61,215 bases of DNA from a virus (Duplodnaviria > Caudoviricetes): IMG/VR virus record IMGVR_UViG_3300028571_000029, positions 1-61,215 of that record, one strand, 5' to 3'. Shown one piece after another: positions 39,618 to 42,311 of this stretch (its first letter is position 1; each line of letters begins with the position of its first letter). Made by a program: the position numbers and the translations under genes. The notes under the pieces are model-generated. The model searched no databases and was not told where the DNA came from. It was given only the letters and a program-made list of their open reading frames with translations.

Positions 39618-40285
39618 ATGTCAACGATTAAAATTAATTTATCCGCGGGTACCAGATTATGGTTCACCGCGGACACGTAACACATTACAATCACGCTAAC
39701 ATCTGTTCTGCCACAACTCAGTGGACCGATCCTGTAACTTGTAGAGAATTTAAATCATTGGAACGTATGAATGCTCACCTAGTTGGTAATATCAACGAAG
39801 TGGTTGGACAAGATGATATATTATTCCATTTAGGAGATTGGAGTTTTGGAGGATTCGAACAAATCGAACTATTCAGAAATCAAATCGTATGCCGAAATAT
39901 TCACCTCATTACAGGTAATCATGATCACCATATTGAGCGAAATAAAGATAATATTCAATCAATATTCAGTTCAGTAAATAAATACTTAGAACTAAATGTT
40001 AAATTTAACCAGGATACGATGTTAGCTGGTTCTGCTGATTTTGTTTTAATGCATTACCCTATTGCTAGTTGGAATAATATGGCTAGAAATTCAATTCATT
40101 TACATGGACATGTTCACTTACCTTCAAATCAAAGGATTGGTAAAGGTAAAATGATGGATGTTGGGGTGGATGGTAATGGATTAAATCCAATTAGTTTGAG
40201 TGAGGTTTTAAAGCTAATGAAGAACCAACCAGTTAAATCATTATTAACATTTGACCATCACGAGATGGTTGAGAATTATAAATAA
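39618..40285 (+). CDS. calcineurin-like metallophosphoesterase, interrupted by a 5-nt stop-containing insert at 39678-39682
   Basis: MSTIKINLSAGTRLWFTADT|HYNH joins motif I (DxH); LGDWS, GNHD, HYP and HGHVH are intact downstream. Confidence 0.85.
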
Positions 40286-40297
40286 AAAATAAAAATT

Positions 40298-40681
40298 ATG
40301 GTAGAATTTAAAGATTTATTAGGTAAAATACTTACAAAAATAGATATAAATCGTGGTGCTGATACAATCACCTTCCATTGTGAAGACGGTACTAGTTACC
40401 AACAATATCACTGCCAAGATTGCTACGAAACCGTAATAATCGATGATATTGTTGGTGATTTAGAGGATTTAATTGGAAATCCAATTTTATTAGCTGAAGA
40501 AGTCTCAAACTACGAACCAATTACAGAAGAAGATATTAAAAGAACAAAAGAAATGAATGAATGGGGTTCATGTACCTGGACATTCTATAAATTAGCAACT
40601 GTAAAAGGATATGTTGATATTAAATGGTTTAGTGAATCGAATGGATGTTATAGTGAATCTGTAGATTTTAAACAATTGTAA
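40298..40681 (+). CDS. conserved phage hypothetical protein
   Basis: HCQDCYE, TWTFYKLAT, SNGCYSE. Confidence 0.7.
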   Translation: MVEFKDLLGKILTKIDINRGADTITFHCEDGTSYQQYHCQDCYETVIIDDIVGDLEDLIGNPILLAEEVSNYEPITEEDIKRTKEMNEWGSCTWTFYKLATVKGYVDIKWFSESNGCYSESVDFKQL

Positions 40682-40688
40682 ATTTAAA

Positions 40689-41837
40689 ATGGAAAATAAT
40701 AACTCAGTTTGCTTTGTAGCTCGAATTAATGAAATAAAACCAATTGAAGGAGCAGACAATATCGAACAAGCAATTGTTGGTGGATGGAGATGTATTGTTA
40801 AAAAAGGAGCACATATTGTAGATGATTTAGTAGTATGTACTACTACAGACGCTGTTATACCCCAAAAACTATCAGATGCTCTAAACGTAACCAATTACTT
40901 ACGTAAAGATGGACGTGTACGTACTGTTAAATTGAAAGGAGTATATAGTGAATGTTTAATCATATCTTTAGATAGCTTACCTCAAATGAAGAAGCAATTC
41001 GCTAAAGGTATAGGTTACTATTGGGATGAAGGTGAAGATTTAATGGAATTCTTAAAAATATTTAAATACGAACCTCCAGTTAAAATGGTTCAACTGGCTT
41101 CAGGACGTAAAATTAAATATAAAGATAATCCTAACTTTCATATTTACTATAAATTTCCAAACCTAAAGAACGTACCTGGAATGTTTACTGAAAATGATAT
41201 AGTAGAGATTACTCGTAAGATACACGGAACAAATGCTCGTTATGGTATTGTTAGAAAAACTAAATTATCATTCTTAGATAAGATTAAAAAATTCTTCGGT
41301 AATAAATGGATTGAATACGAATTTATAGTTGGATCTCACAATGTTGAGAAAGGATCTGAATCACAAGGTTTCTATGACACTAATGTTTGGTATGATATTG
41401 AGAAAAAATATGACATCAAAACCAAGCTTTGGAACTATATTAAGATATACAATCCTGAAATTATTGGTGATGGAGTTATTCTTTATGGAGAAATATATGG
41501 AGCCGGTATTCAAAAAGGATATGATTATGGTTTAAAAGAAATCAAATTTGCTGGTTTTGATGTAAAAGCTGATGGGGAGTATTTAGATACATACTATACA
41601 TATCTTACTATTATGGATGAATTAGAATTACCATATGTTGAAATATTATATCAAGGATATTGGTCTCAAGAAATTCAAGATAAATTTACCTTTAATAATT
41701 TCATTCCAGGAACTAAAGTACCAGAAGAAGGTATTGTAATTAAACATGTATCAGGAGATCGTTCTTTAATTGCTAAGGTTATTAATCCCGACTATAGTAT
41801 TTACAGTGAAAAACACAATGTTGGAGACAGCCACTAA
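40689..41837 (+). CDS. RNA ligase (DRB0094/Rnl-family) with N-terminal OB-like domain
   Basis: PIEGADNIE, VKLKGVYSE, motif I KIHGTN, GEIYG, FD, EGIV, KVIN. Confidence 0.88.
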   Translation: MENNNSVCFVARINEIKPIEGADNIEQAIVGGWRCIVKKGAHIVDDLVVCTTTDAVIPQKLSDALNVTNYLRKDGRVRTVKLKGVYSECLIISLDSLPQMKKQFAKGIGYYWDEGEDLMEFLKIFKYEPPVKMVQLASGRKIKYKDNPNFHIYYKFPNLKNVPGMFTENDIVEITRKIHGTNARYGIVRKTKLSFLDKIKKFFGNKWIEYEFIVGSHNVEKGSESQGFYDTNVWYDIEKKYDIKTKLWNYIKIYNPEIIGDGVILYGEIYGAGIQKGYDYGLKEIKFAGFDVKADGEYLDTYYTYLTIMDELELPYVEILYQGYWSQEIQDKFTFNNFIPGTKVPEEGIVIKHVSGDRSLIAKVINPDYSIYSEKHNVGDSH

Positions 41838-41891
41838 ATGTGGCTTGTCTCTATACATTGCGTATATTGAATATATAAGATAAGAAAAGTT

Positions 41892-42311
41892 ATGGATAAT
41901 TTAAAACAAGATAGAAGCCCTCTAAAGGAATTGTTCCTTCTAAGAGGGCTTCCGTAGCTAGGAGCAGGTAAATCAACATTAGCTAAATCATTAAATGAAG
42001 TATATTTTGAAGCTGATCAATACTTTATTGAGTTTCATGAATATAAATTTGATTCTGCTGGATTAAAAACAGCACACAAGTGGTGTCAGTTAAGAACTGA
42101 ACACGCTATGGAGGATGAATGGCCTCGTATTGTGGTTTCAAATACCTTCACTCAAGAATGGGAAATGAAAAATTACTATGAATTAGCTGAAAAATATGGA
42201 TATAGAGTATATTCATTAATTGTAGAGAATAGACACAATGGAGTAAATCAGCATAATGTTCCAGCTGACAAAATAGAACAAATGCGTAATCGATTTGAAG
42301 TTAAAATATGA
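41892..42311 (+). CDS. AAA_33 / polynucleotide-kinase-like P-loop protein, interrupted by an in-frame TAG-CTA insert at 41955-41960
   Basis: ELFLLRGLP|GAGKSTLA Walker A; EADQYF, AHKWCQ, VVSNTFTQEWEM and HNVP all in frame. Confidence 0.85.

What the first reader, a model, noticed from the sequence alone, without database searches (positions are those of the whole stretch)
39618..42311. Putative RNA-repair module whose two end-healing enzymes share a hairpin-stop-gap recoding signal
Seen: the phosphoesterase and P-loop kinase genes flank an intact RNA ligase. Both have a stop at codon 21 or 22 inside the first catalytic motif, after an NCG codon and at the 3' foot of a strong hairpin, with a 5-6 nt TA-starting gap whose removal gives a perfect motif. 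Two independent accidents with this shared architecture are unlikely. Inference: an apparently undescribed micro-bypass system, in which an upstream hairpin refolds and pushes the ribosome over a stop. It may make tRNA-repair enzymes conditional on translation stress. The alternative is micro-introns excised and sealed by the ligase.
Basis: partly seen in the sequence, partly recalled or inferred. Interest (0 to 1): 0.93.

Follow-up and report, generated by a model that had tools for sequence, protein, structure and literature searches.

The report
Hairpin-driven ribosome hops over stop codons
Two RNA-repair genes of this phage are each broken by a stop codon plus 2-3 extra bases inside a catalytic motif, and comparison with over a hundred similar cases suggests ribosomes hop over the break, a natural short "stop-hop" apparently spread by homing endonucleases.

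Summary
The phosphoesterase (39618-40285) and the P-loop kinase (41892-42311) each carry a stop at codon 21/22. The stop sits at the foot of a strong hairpin (-18.7 and -23.0 kcal/mol). Five or six extra nucleotides split the DxH motif and the Walker A motif.

It is neither an accident nor an assembly error. Pattern scans found 105 true Walker-A cases among 110 matches (77 distinct) in viral contigs, in AAA_33 kinases and UvrD-like helicases. They also found about 30 phosphoesterase cases.

Shared features:
- All three stop codons are used.
- The triplet before the resume codon can almost always pair with the take-off tRNA: CCN to CCN, CUN or UCN, and ACN to ACN or GCN.
- C-ending codons are absent at both Walker-A positions.
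- Hairpins covary, include G-U pairs, and are absent from 103 uninterrupted homologues.
- Downstream frames have dN/dS of 0.05-0.32.

Best reading: a programmed +5/+6 ribosome hop over a stop, helped by a refolding 5' hairpin.

Half of the genes immediately upstream encode homing endonucleases (34/70, against about 1/74 in controls). One locus shows the cassette inserted at the Walker A site. This looks like a miniature analogue of the T4 gene 60/MobA cassette. No experiment, RNA or protein data exist. The "translation-stress sensor" idea is untested.

The parts
38631..39569 (+). Homing-endonuclease-like gene (312 aa), 48 nt upstream of the interrupted phosphoesterase
   Evidence: PHROG phrog_559 'HNH endonuclease' E=4e-70; phrog_9084 'homing endonuclease' 5e-29; phrog_7140 'intron encoded nuclease'. 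Pfam DUF723, DUF4379 zinc finger, PvuRts1I-like_N.
39618..39677 (+). Phosphoesterase first segment: 20 codons (MSTIKINLSAGTRLWFTADT) ending in take-off codon ACG (39675-39677)
   Evidence: Aligns with the N-terminus of 78 uninterrupted homologues, 'M..L..GQ.LWFTSDT'.
39642..39673 (+). 5' hairpin. The stem is GC-rich in a window of 28.7% G+C, and its 3' foot lies 1 nt before the take-off codon
   Evidence: -18.7 kcal/mol, z -3.9. Absent from 78 uninterrupted homologues. Relative L024 keeps it through a compensatory C-G to A-U change.
39678..39682 (+). 5-nt coding gap: stop TAA (39678-39680) plus CA. The proposed landing triplet ACA (39680-39682) overlaps the stop, and the resume codon is CAT at 39683
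   Evidence: DNA similarity to uninterrupted relatives starts at 39680 in 15 of the 25 best loci. The landing triplet is ACN or GCN in 27 of 28 distinct related cases.
39683..40285 (+). Phosphoesterase second segment (HYNHANI... to the stop), a calcineurin-like metallophosphoesterase
   Evidence: Pfam Metallophos_2 1.4e-6 and Metallophos 9.5e-4. 64-78% amino-acid identity to intact homologues.
40298..40681 (+). DUF7448 gene, intact
   Evidence: PF24240 4e-22; phrog_2650.
40689..41837 (+). RNA ligase, intact
   Evidence: PF09414 RNA_ligase 2.4e-15 and PF21189 OB-fold 1e-12.
41892..41954 (+). Kinase first segment: 21 codons (MDNLKQDRSPLKELFLLRGLP). About 10 codons are an N-terminal extension, followed by a copy of the native N-terminus, ending in take-off codon CCG (41952-41954)
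   Evidence: Uninterrupted homologues start 'MKELFLLRGLP'.
41914..41952 (+). 5' hairpin (10-bp outer and 6-bp inner stem). Its last pair uses the first base of the take-off codon
   Evidence: -23.0 kcal/mol, z -4.8. Absent from 25 uninterrupted homologues. In 22 related kinase sites, 90.6% of cells are paired against 41-59% when the partners are slid, with 30 double-change cells against 10.7 in shuffles.
41955..41960 (+). 6-nt coding gap: stop TAG (41955-41957) plus proposed landing codon CTA (41958-41960). The resume codon is GGA at 41961
   Evidence: The codon after the stop is CCN, CTN or TCN in 77 of 77 distinct Walker-A cases. An independent run's contig (X3, record 21) spans 41524-42083 without any difference.
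41961..42311 (+). Kinase second segment (GAGKST... to the stop), an AAA_33 polynucleotide-kinase-like P-loop kinase
   Evidence: PF13671 AAA_33 6e-9. 43-48% identity to phage 'polynucleotide kinase/ATPase' genes next to RNA ligases.

Best explanation
Both genes are probably expressed by a programmed short translational bypass, a natural 'stop-hop'.

Proposed mechanism (steps 2-4 are inferred):
1. The ribosome translates the 20-21-codon leader and arrives with peptidyl-tRNA on the take-off codon (ACG-Thr, CCG-Pro). A stop codon followed by C sits in the A site.
2. At that moment the 3' arm of a strong hairpin lies inside the ribosome, unpaired.
3. As the hairpin re-zips behind the ribosome it draws the mRNA through by 5 or 6 nt and strips the take-off codon, whose first base is often part of the stem.
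4. The retained peptidyl-tRNA re-pairs with the next pairable triplet. In the phosphoesterase this is ACA, overlapping the stop (+5). In the kinase it is CUA, just after the stop (+6, with G-U in the middle position).
5. Decoding resumes at the next codon, giving an uninterrupted DxH motif or Walker A motif.

Proposed origin:
- The device appears to be part of a mobile cassette built around a homing endonuclease.
- The cassette supplies a new start, a short N-terminal extension and a recoded copy of the native N-terminus that forms the hairpin.
- It ends with the stop, and the native gene resumes at the landing codon.
- The few extra nucleotides would separate the two halves of the endonuclease's target. 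That target is a motif-coding sequence that tolerates no insertion at protein level. Hopping keeps the insert silent in the protein.

Shown here: the anatomy, its recurrence, selection on the hairpin and on the downstream frame, the codon-matching rules, the endonuclease association, and one cassette boundary. Inferred: the hop itself, the spring role of the hairpin, and the immunity role of the insert.
For: (1) Recurrence in independent assemblies.
- Phosphoesterase: L024/L025, L115 and L116 in viral contigs, plus 26 of 26 metagenome pattern matches.
- Walker A: 105 of 110 pattern matches are open P-loop genes, 77 of them distinct. The 5 false matches have unrelated triplets after the stop position (GAC, ACA, AAT, CGG, TTT).
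- Families: AAA_33 kinases and UvrD-like helicases.

(2) Not a code change. TGA, TAA and TAG occur 29, 28 and 20 times.

(3) Re-pairing signature.
- Walker A take-off codons: CCT 35, CCG 33, CCA 9, CCC 0.
- Walker A landing codons: CCN 37, CTN 37, TCN 3, none ending in C.
- In the same helicase genes CCC is 27.6% of Pro codons and CTC 25.4% of CTN codons.
- Phosphoesterase landing triplets: ACN 20, GCN 7 (all after TAG), ATT 1, of 28 distinct.
- Every one of these can pair with the take-off tRNA if G-U is allowed.

(4) Hairpin.
- 67 of 74 assessable distinct Walker-A sites fold at -16 kcal/mol or lower (median -23.4). Only 4% of 720 control windows inside the same genes do so.
- No such hairpin occurs in 78 + 25 uninterrupted homologues.
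- Covariation includes G-U pairs on the sense strand.

(5) The genes are not dead. dN/dS is 0.05-0.32 in the 17 of 21 hop-bearing pairs for which it could be computed.

(6) Endonuclease association.
- 34 of 70 distinct genes immediately upstream are NUMOD3 + TnsA-like (19) or HNH_3 (15).
- The control of 74 uninterrupted loci has 1 NUMOD3 and 1 GIY-YIG hit.
- LAGLIDADG and HNH genes lie upstream of about 5-7 of 26 phosphoesterase cases.
- The window's own upstream gene is endonuclease-like.

(7) Cassette boundary. In L157 the original 'MKELFLLRGLPG' start lies truncated upstream of the endonuclease. Similarity to the intact relative L103 resumes exactly at the landing codon. In the window it resumes at 39680.

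(8) Published precedent (passages read):
- Synthetic stop-hops, with the statement that no natural in-frame stop hop is known (PMC5009743).
- The MobA/gene 60 cassette and its protective insert (10.1101/2022.08.31.505936).
- Pairing of exiting mRNA as a forward driver (10.1101/2024.12.09.627546).
Against: - No experimental, RNA or protein evidence exists for any case. No listed sequencing run was RNA.
- No cultured phage with the device was found. Four regions of cultured phages were inspected and all are intact. All 4 true hits in prokaryote genomes are in metagenome-assembled bins.
- The window's kinase lands on CUA, which needs a G-U pair in the middle codon position.
- One kinase (L116) has ACA after the stop, which breaks the rule.
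- 7 of 74 sites have weak hairpins.
- Only about half of the sites have an adjacent endonuclease gene, and the window's kinase has none.
- A remnant of the original N-terminus was found in only 1 of 75 assessable loci.
- At take-off the hairpin's foot is inside the ribosome, so the 'spring' role is a model, not an observation.
- Hop efficiency is unknown.
- The counts are not phylogenetically independent.
Confidence: 0.75

Rival explanations
1. The hop is real, but its purpose is regulatory rather than endonuclease immunity. Hairpin refolding needs a gap behind the lead ribosome. Full-length enzyme would then be made mainly when ribosome traffic or release-factor activity changes.
For: - The leader is short and close to the start codon (mode 21 codons), so a following ribosome could melt the 5' arm.
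- For gene 60, monosome bypassing is reported to be higher than polysome bypassing (passage in 10.1101/2024.12.09.627546).
- Two enzymes of one repair pathway carry the device, both in the window and in L116.
- About half of the sites have no adjacent endonuclease.
Against: - The same device occurs in UvrD-like helicases, which are unrelated to RNA repair.
- There is a strong excess of endonuclease genes next to it.
- Hop-bearing and intact genes are interspersed in the kinase tree, as expected for a mobile element.
- Nothing measured here bears on conditionality.
Confidence: 0.12
2. Different, conventional recoding at each site: stop-codon readthrough in the kinase (two extra residues in the P-loop) and a -1 or +2 frameshift in the phosphoesterase.
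For: The kinase interruption is in frame. A stop followed by C is recalled as a weak termination context; no call tested this.
Against: - Readthrough would put two residues inside GxxxxGK[ST], and a -1 shift would put two inside DxH.
- If only the amino acid mattered, CCC and CTC should appear after the stop. They are 0 of 77, although they make up about 25% of usage in the helicase genes.
- By eye there is no slippery heptamer at the phosphoesterase site.
- The stimulator is upstream, not downstream.
- One mechanism explains both site classes.
Confidence: 0.06
3. The genes are dead: scars of endonuclease-cassette insertion, with no full-length product.
For: - A premature stop lies in an essential motif.
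- The device is associated with selfish elements.
- No expression data exist.
Against: - dN/dS is 0.05-0.32 downstream of the break, with dS of 0.8 to saturation between hop-bearing pairs.
- The hairpin covaries.
- The triplet after the stop and the take-off codon are constrained.
- All downstream frames are intact (105 of 105).
Confidence: 0.04
4. The 5-6 nt are removed from the mRNA, for example by cleavage at the hairpin foot and resealing by the RNA ligase (a 'micro-intron'), or by editing.
For: In the window an RNA ligase, a kinase and a phosphoesterase lie together. The hairpin could mark a cleavage site.
Against: - Excision needs no pairing relation between the codon before the gap and the last three gap nucleotides, yet that relation holds in nearly all cases.
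- Excision also gives no reason why the gap should always begin with a stop codon.
- The repair enzymes would be needed to make themselves.
- I did not check whether the helicase loci carry an RNA ligase (one search scanned only the interrupted genes).
Confidence: 0.03
5. Sequencing or assembly artefact.
For: The window is a metagenome-assembled viral contig.
Against: - More than 100 records from many assemblies carry diverged sequences with the same architecture.
- A contig of another run is identical across the kinase site.
Confidence: 0.01

Closest known systems
Phage T4 gene 60 translational bypass within the MobA homing-endonuclease element (10.1101/2022.08.31.505936 and PMC5009743, passages read)
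   Same: - Peptidyl-tRNA take-off next to a stop codon, with re-pairing at a matched downstream codon.
- A 5' stem-loop and pairing of exiting mRNA are proposed as the forward driver.
- The cassette supplies a new N-terminal extension plus a recoded copy of the native sequence.
- It lies next to a homing endonuclease.
- The insert sits in a conserved, insertion-intolerant part of an enzyme.
- The endonuclease is often lost while the bypass is kept.
   Different: - The gap is 5-6 nt, not 50.
- There is no A-site or extended stem-loop within the gap.
- Here the hairpin ends at or inside the take-off codon, against 9 nt upstream in gene 60.
- No nascent-peptide signal has been shown.
- The take-off tRNA is Pro or Thr, not Gly.
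- The targets are kinases, phosphoesterases and helicases, not topoisomerase.
- The endonucleases belong to at least four other families.
- The preprint states that the gene 60 cassette is found only in Topo2L and 'remains unique'.
Synthetic 'stop-hops' in E. coli (Weiss et al. 1987, as described in PMC5009743 and listed in the references of PMC10732093)
   Same: Matched codons flank a stop, nine nucleotides specify one amino acid, and +5 and +6 events occur.
   Different: - Those were low-level events in artificial constructs without stimulators.
- The 2016 review states that no natural in-frame stop hop is known.
- Here the sites are natural, conserved, and equipped with a strong hairpin.
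Streptomyces phage Hau3 terminase: proposed bypass of 10-nt inserts after a UUA codon (PMC10732093, passages read)
   Same: A short coding gap in a conserved phage enzyme, with a 5' stem-loop proposed as a stimulator.
   Different: - The A-site codon there is a rare sense codon, not a stop.
- A regulatory role tied to host tRNA has been proposed.
- Only three genes are known.
- The passages I read report no endonuclease link.
Byp inserts in Magnusiomyces capitatus mitochondria (as described in PMC5009743)
   Same: Many short inserts are bypassed, take-off and landing matching is imperfect, and two-out-of-three pairing is tolerated.
   Different: - The inserts are 27-55 nt (recalled, not from a call).
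- They occur in mitochondria, with an unused codon in the A site.
- Bypass is said to be independent of mRNA context.
RF2 (prfB) +1 frameshift (recalled, not from a call)
   Same: A stop sits in the A site, and an upstream helix (SD:anti-SD) placed too close to the P site favours forward movement.
   Different: The shift there is +1 onto an overlapping codon, and the helix forms with rRNA, not within the mRNA.

Membership tests
Programmed translational bypassing (hopping) | The take-off codon and a downstream landing triplet can pair with the same peptidyl-tRNA | tested here: met
   - Window: ACG to ACA (Watson-Crick or wobble) and CCG to CUA (needs G-U in the middle position).
- 77 of 77 distinct Walker-A sites have CCN, CUN or UCN.
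- 27 of 28 phosphoesterase sites have ACN or GCN.
- Exceptions: L116 kinase ACA and one ATT.
Programmed translational bypassing (hopping) | A slow-to-decode codon (stop) in the A site at take-off | tested here: met
   A stop directly follows the take-off codon in all cases, and all three stops are used. The patterns required a stop-like triplet, so this is partly by construction.
Programmed translational bypassing (hopping) | A single polypeptide is made from the two segments without the gap-encoded residues | not testable with these tools
   Needs mass spectrometry or reporters. Indirect support: dN/dS of 0.05-0.32 downstream, and no in-frame start that would keep the motif.
T4 gene 60 / MobA bypass cassette | 50-nt gap with an A-site or take-off stem-loop inside the gap, GGA take-off and landing, and a KKYK nascent-peptide signal | tested here: not met
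   The gap is 5-6 nt and the hairpin lies wholly upstream. Take-off is Thr or Pro. No such peptide occurs in the 20-21-residue leaders.
T4 gene 60 / MobA bypass cassette | Physically linked to a homing endonuclease; the cassette supplies an N-terminal extension plus a homologous recoded region | tested here: met
   - 34 of 70 upstream genes against about 1 of 74 controls.
- The window's upstream gene.
- L157 anatomy.
- Partial: the window's kinase has no adjacent endonuclease.
Stop-codon readthrough | The stop is decoded as an amino acid in the same frame, giving an extended product | tested here: not met
   The phosphoesterase needs a frame change. For the kinase, readthrough would lengthen the P-loop by two residues, and the synonymous-codon bias after the stop (no NNC) is not explained.
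Stop-codon reassignment (alternative genetic code) | One stop codon is read as sense throughout the genome | tested here: not met
   - TAA and TAG interrupt the two genes of one window.
- TGA, TAA and TAG are all used across cases.
- The window's other ORFs are long and closed under table 11.
- No suppressor tRNA is among the 6 tRNAs found.
Phage RNA-repair module (polynucleotide kinase + phosphoesterase + RNA ligase) | A P-loop kinase, a metallophosphoesterase and an RNA ligase encoded together | tested here: met
   - Pfam AAA_33, Metallophos and RNA_ligase + OB.
- The same three genes are adjacent in relatives.
- They are fused in L140.
- Activity was not tested.

The most novel reading that the evidence does not exclude
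This would be a widespread and so far unrecognised class of natural recoding: 'stop-hop' cassettes.
- A strong 5' hairpin, zipping up behind the ribosome, acts as a spring that carries the peptidyl-tRNA 5-6 nt over a stop codon.
- At least four families of homing endonucleases (NUMOD3/PD-(D/E)XK, HNH_3, LAGLIDADG and the window's HNH-like type) would use the device. It lets them place a self-immunity insert inside catalytic motifs that tolerate no insertion: Walker A of kinases and helicases, and DxH of phosphoesterases.
- If so, these would be the first natural in-frame stop hops.
- The minimal system (about 65 nt) would make the mechanics of take-off and landing, and the pairing rules of a P-site tRNA, directly testable.
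Probability: 0.6. Interest if true: 0.92.

Novelty: new variant of a known kind. Interest (0 to 1): 0.88.

Why it matters
- Programmed bypassing has very few natural examples: T4 gene 60 and its homologues, yeast mitochondrial byps, and a candidate in Streptomyces phages.
- The 2016 review read here says no natural in-frame stop hop is known.
- If these sites work as inferred, they add over a hundred natural cases in at least three enzyme families.
- They use a much simpler signal set: hairpin, stop, and a pairable triplet. That set is small enough to dissect by mutation and structure.
- They give natural data on which P-site mismatches are tolerated (G-U in any position, and no C opposite position 34).
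- They would show that different homing endonucleases have converged on ribosome hopping to hide an immunity insert in an essential motif.
- In practice, gene callers split or truncate these genes, so phage kinases, phosphoesterases and helicases are being mis-annotated as fragments or pseudogenes.

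Tried and rejected
- **Code reassignment:** rejected, because all three stops are used and no suppressor tRNA is present.
- **Other hop sites in the window:** none. Only 39678 and 41955 fit.
- **Other kinds of hop site in the fetched loci:**
  - 9,937 distinct junctions of a short ORF, a stop and a long ORF were folded.
  - 466 had a hairpin of -16 kcal/mol or lower.
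  - In loci below 42% G+C, 35 were left after removing the Walker-A and phosphoesterase sites.
  - None was convincing by eye.
  - GC-rich loci were too noisy to judge.
- **Cultured phages:**
  - tblastn with a helicase and with the window's kinase found 101 and 617 records.
  - I inspected 4 regions (Ceto, phiPsa267, Amme-3, DSL-LC04). All are uninterrupted, and the apparent 'x2' annotations are mis-splits.
- **Prokaryote genomes:** 24 pattern matches. Four are true helicase cases in metagenome bins and 20 are chance matches.
- **Expression:** no RNA holder is listed among the 24 runs. The contigs laid are DNA. Parts of the stretch without cover say nothing.
- **Remnant of the original N-terminus upstream of the endonuclease:**
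  - Found only in L157, 1 of 75 assessable loci.
  - Nothing convincing lies upstream of the window's endonuclease.
- **Homologues of the window's endonuclease:** they occur in a few hop loci but not adjacent to the sites.
- **Kinase tree:** too poorly resolved to count gains and losses. At least 2 changes are forced, and the best tree shows 9.
- **Literature:**
  - Four searches found no description of natural 5-6-nt stop hops, of interrupted Walker A motifs, or of endonuclease-linked short bypasses.
  - Only the held library was searched.
  - Supplementary files were not opened. The supplementary tables of 10.1101/2022.08.31.505936 could list further cassettes that I could not see.

Full report
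**What is there**

The window is a 61-kb viral metagenome contig, estimated 38% complete, with 28.7% G+C. Its genes lie almost all on the + strand.

Between 39618 and 42311 lie four genes:
- a calcineurin-like phosphoesterase;
- a DUF7448 gene;
- an RNA ligase (PF09414 plus OB fold);
- an AAA_33 P-loop kinase.

The phosphoesterase has 20 sense codons and then TAA (39678-39680). The long frame resumes two nucleotides later, at CAT 39683. The kinase has 21 sense codons, then TAG (41955-41957) and CTA, and then continues in frame as GAGKST.

In 78 of 80 homologous loci the phosphoesterase reads ..WFTSDT|HYNH.. without a break. Uninterrupted kinase homologues read ..LLRGLP|GSGKST. So five and six nucleotides are extra, inside the DxH motif and the Walker A motif.

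Each stop sits at the foot of a hairpin:
- 39642-39673: -18.7 kcal/mol.
- 41914-41952: -23.0 kcal/mol.
- Neither energy was reached by any of 200 shuffles.

The equivalent stretch of uninterrupted homologues does not fold. It averages -3.4 kcal/mol (minimum -7.4, n = 78) for the phosphoesterase and -3.3 (minimum -6.1, n = 25) for the kinase.

A scan of all stop codons in the window found no third site of this kind.

**It recurs**

Two viral records (L024 and L025, one sequence) carry a phosphoesterase 69% identical to the window's.
- It has the same layout but different letters: take-off ACC, stop TGA, then CT.
- Its hairpin is kept through a compensatory C-G to A-U change.

A pattern for W-F-T-x-D-T-stop-NN-H-Y-N-H found two further, much more distant cases, L115 and L116. 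A slightly looser pattern found 26 metagenome records. All 26 were true cases, with hairpins of -16 to -26 kcal/mol.

Three records carry a kinase 58% identical to the window's, reading CCT TGA CCG GGA behind an unrelated 8-bp GC stem.

A pattern for G-x-P-stop-NNN-G-x-G-K-S/T-T matched 110 viral records.
- 105 are open P-loop genes, 77 of them distinct.
- The 5 others are chance matches.
- By Pfam (10 sampled) and a Walker-A motif rule, they are AAA_33 kinases (40 distinct) and UvrD-like SF1 helicases (37 distinct, in contigs of 39-62% G+C).
- One kinase is fused to a phosphoesterase and an Rnl1-type ligase.

In L116 a kinase and the adjacent phosphoesterase are both interrupted, as in the window.

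A contig from another sequencing run covers 41524-42083 without any difference. An artefact or a private accident is excluded.

**Why a hop**

All three stop codons are used (TGA 29, TAA 28, TAG 20), so this is not a code change.

The phosphoesterase needs a frame change, so it is not simple readthrough.

The decisive regularity is the triplet that precedes the resume codon.

Walker A sites:
- The triplet is CCN (37), CTN (37) or TCN (3), and nothing else, in 77 of 77 distinct sites.
- The five chance matches have GAC, ACA, AAT, CGG and TTT.
- It never ends in C, and the take-off codon is never CCC.
- Yet CCC is 27.6% of Pro codons and CTC 25.4% of CTN codons in the same helicase genes.

Phosphoesterase sites:
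- The triplet overlaps the last base of the stop.
- It is ACN after TAA or TGA (20), GCN after TAG (7), and ATT once.

Every one of these triplets can pair with the tRNA that sits on the take-off codon if G-U pairs are allowed. For Pro, this fits an anticodon with U at position 34, which pairs poorly with C. That assignment is my inference from the codon table, not a tested fact.

This is what peptidyl-tRNA re-pairing predicts. Protein-level constraint, RNA excision or decay do not predict it.

In the window the events would be ACG to ACA (+5) and CCG to CUA (+6).

One exception was seen: ACA after the stop in the L116 kinase.

**The hairpin**
- Of 74 assessable distinct Walker-A sites, 67 fold at -16 kcal/mol or lower (median -23.4). 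Only 4% of 720 control windows inside the same genes do so.
- The last pair usually involves the first or second base of the take-off codon. One or two unpaired bases remain in 48 of 74 sites.
- In an ungapped alignment of 22 kinase leaders, 90.6% of cells are paired, against 41-59% when the partners are slid.
- Five pairs change on both sides. There are 30 double-change cells against 10.7 in shuffles, reached by 0 of 500 shuffles.
- Several pairs alternate between C-G and U-G on the sense strand. This fits an RNA structure better than a DNA structure.

With the take-off codon in the P site, the 3' arm must be inside the ribosome and unpaired. A 5-6-nt forward movement would let it zip up.

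I therefore propose that the stem acts as a spring. The proposal is modelled on the 'pairing of exiting mRNA as forward driver' idea for gene 60 (10.1101/2024.12.09.627546, passages). It is also modelled on the RF2 frameshift, which I recall rather than cite. This step is inference.

**The genes are alive**

Between pairs of hop-bearing genes, dN/dS downstream of the break was 0.05-0.32 in the 17 of 21 pairs where it could be computed. dS ran from 0.8 to 2.7. In the other 4 pairs dS was saturated. No in-frame start downstream would keep the DxH or Walker A motif.

**Where it comes from**

The gene just upstream of the window's phosphoesterase (38631-39569) matches PHROG families annotated as HNH, homing or intron-encoded endonuclease (4e-70).

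Counts of endonuclease-like genes immediately upstream:
- Walker A sites: 34 of 70 distinct genes. Nineteen are NUMOD3 plus TnsA-like PD-(D/E)XK and 15 are HNH_3.
- Control, 74 genes upstream of uninterrupted kinase and phosphoesterase homologues: 1 NUMOD3 hit and 1 GIY-YIG hit, and no HNH_3 among the 25 of 35 families listed.
- Interrupted phosphoesterases: of 26 upstream genes, 4 are LAGLIDADG_3, 2 LAGLIDADG_1 (possibly the same members) and 1 HNH_3.

In L157 the anatomy is explicit. In order it reads:
1. the original start, MKELFLLRGLPG, cut short;
2. the endonuclease gene;
3. a new start with a 10-residue extension and a recoded KELFLLRGLP that forms the hairpin;
4. the stop.

Similarity to the intact sister gene L103 resumes exactly at the landing codon.

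In the window, similarity to uninterrupted phosphoesterases likewise begins at 39680, the first base of the landing triplet, in 15 of the 25 best loci.

Hop-bearing and intact kinases are interspersed in a poorly resolved tree.

This is the layout described for the MobA element of T4 gene 60 (10.1101/2022.08.31.505936, passages):
- an endonuclease, an N-terminal extension and a homologous recoded region;
- a bypass insert that protects the carrier from its own endonuclease.

By analogy I infer that the 5-6 nt separate the halves of an endonuclease target lying in motif-coding DNA. I infer that hopping hides the insert from the protein.

Limits of this part:
- Only half of the sites keep an endonuclease.
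- The window's kinase has none.
- Only 1 of 75 loci keeps a recognisable remnant of the old start.

**Against what is known**

The 2016 review by Atkins and colleagues (PMC5009743, passages) describes synthetic 'stop-hops' in E. coli. It states that no natural in-frame stop hop is known. The 2022 preprint calls the gene 60 cassette unique and confined to topoisomerase.

Four full-text searches found nothing on short natural stop hops, on interrupted Walker A motifs in phages, or on other endonuclease-linked bypasses.

I therefore rate this as a new variant of a known kind. It is bypassing, and it is endonuclease-linked. It differs in four ways:
- a minimal gap;
- a purely upstream stimulator that reaches into the take-off codon;
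- other tRNAs;
- other targets and other endonucleases.

**What is missing**
- No transcript, protein or reporter data exist for any case.
- No cultured phage carries the device among those inspected.
- The only cases in prokaryote genome collections are 4 helicases in metagenome bins.
It is untested, and the presence of the device in helicases weakens it.

**Verdict**

A programmed +5/+6 stop-hop with a 5' hairpin, carried by homing-endonuclease cassettes, is the best-supported explanation. My confidence is about 0.75 for the hop and lower for the immunity role.

Noticed in passing
L116:1500-2040: In this distant phage contig a kinase and the phosphoesterase right after it are both interrupted in the same way as in the window. 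The kinase has ACA after the stop (CCT TAA ACA GGA). This is the one clear exception to the pairable-triplet rule.
   Followed up: partly
L140:2339-4529: A single 725-residue protein fuses an AAA_33 kinase, a Metallophos domain and an Rnl1-type RNA ligase. Its Walker A is interrupted (CCT TAG CCA) with only a weak hairpin (-12 kcal/mol).
   Followed up: partly
L167:2385-5267 (- strand): A hop-bearing UvrD-like helicase also shows a weak Intein_splicing match (32.2 bits, below Pfam's cut-off of 35.8). There may be two selfish inserts in one gene.
   Followed up: no
L133, L150, L170 (Walker A sites): A subgroup of larger AAA_33 kinases starts 'MAAIIEMLIGLP' and then reads CCT TAG CCN GGT. The leader has only 12 codons and almost no hairpin (-9 kcal/mol). 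The hairpin is therefore not universal.
   Followed up: partly
window 38536-38612: Just upstream of the endonuclease-like gene lies an inverted repeat (GTCGGAC ... GTCCGAC) around a short ORF 'MYNENINLKLMVSRVSD..'. I could not tell whether this is a decayed remnant of the original phosphoesterase start.
   Followed up: partly
window 1388-3090: A cluster of six tRNA genes (Cys, Phe, Lys, Trp, Arg-ACG, Leu-GAG). None is Pro, Thr or a suppressor.
   Followed up: no
window 39618-42311 compared with L004, L009, L018: Gene order differs from close relatives. They have phosphoesterase, kinase, ligase. The window has phosphoesterase, DUF7448, ligase, kinase.
   Followed up: no
window 49390-49700; also 45633 and 46053 (- strand): Repeated GC-stem hairpins (GCTCCTTCGGGGGC type) lie between small genes and look like terminators. 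Two identical 50-nt stretches occur on the minus strand.
   Followed up: no
L228 (Pseudomonas phage phiPsa267), locus 268-796: The deposited annotation splits an uninterrupted kinase frame into two 'hypothetical proteins'. This is an annotation error, not a hop site.
   Followed up: yes
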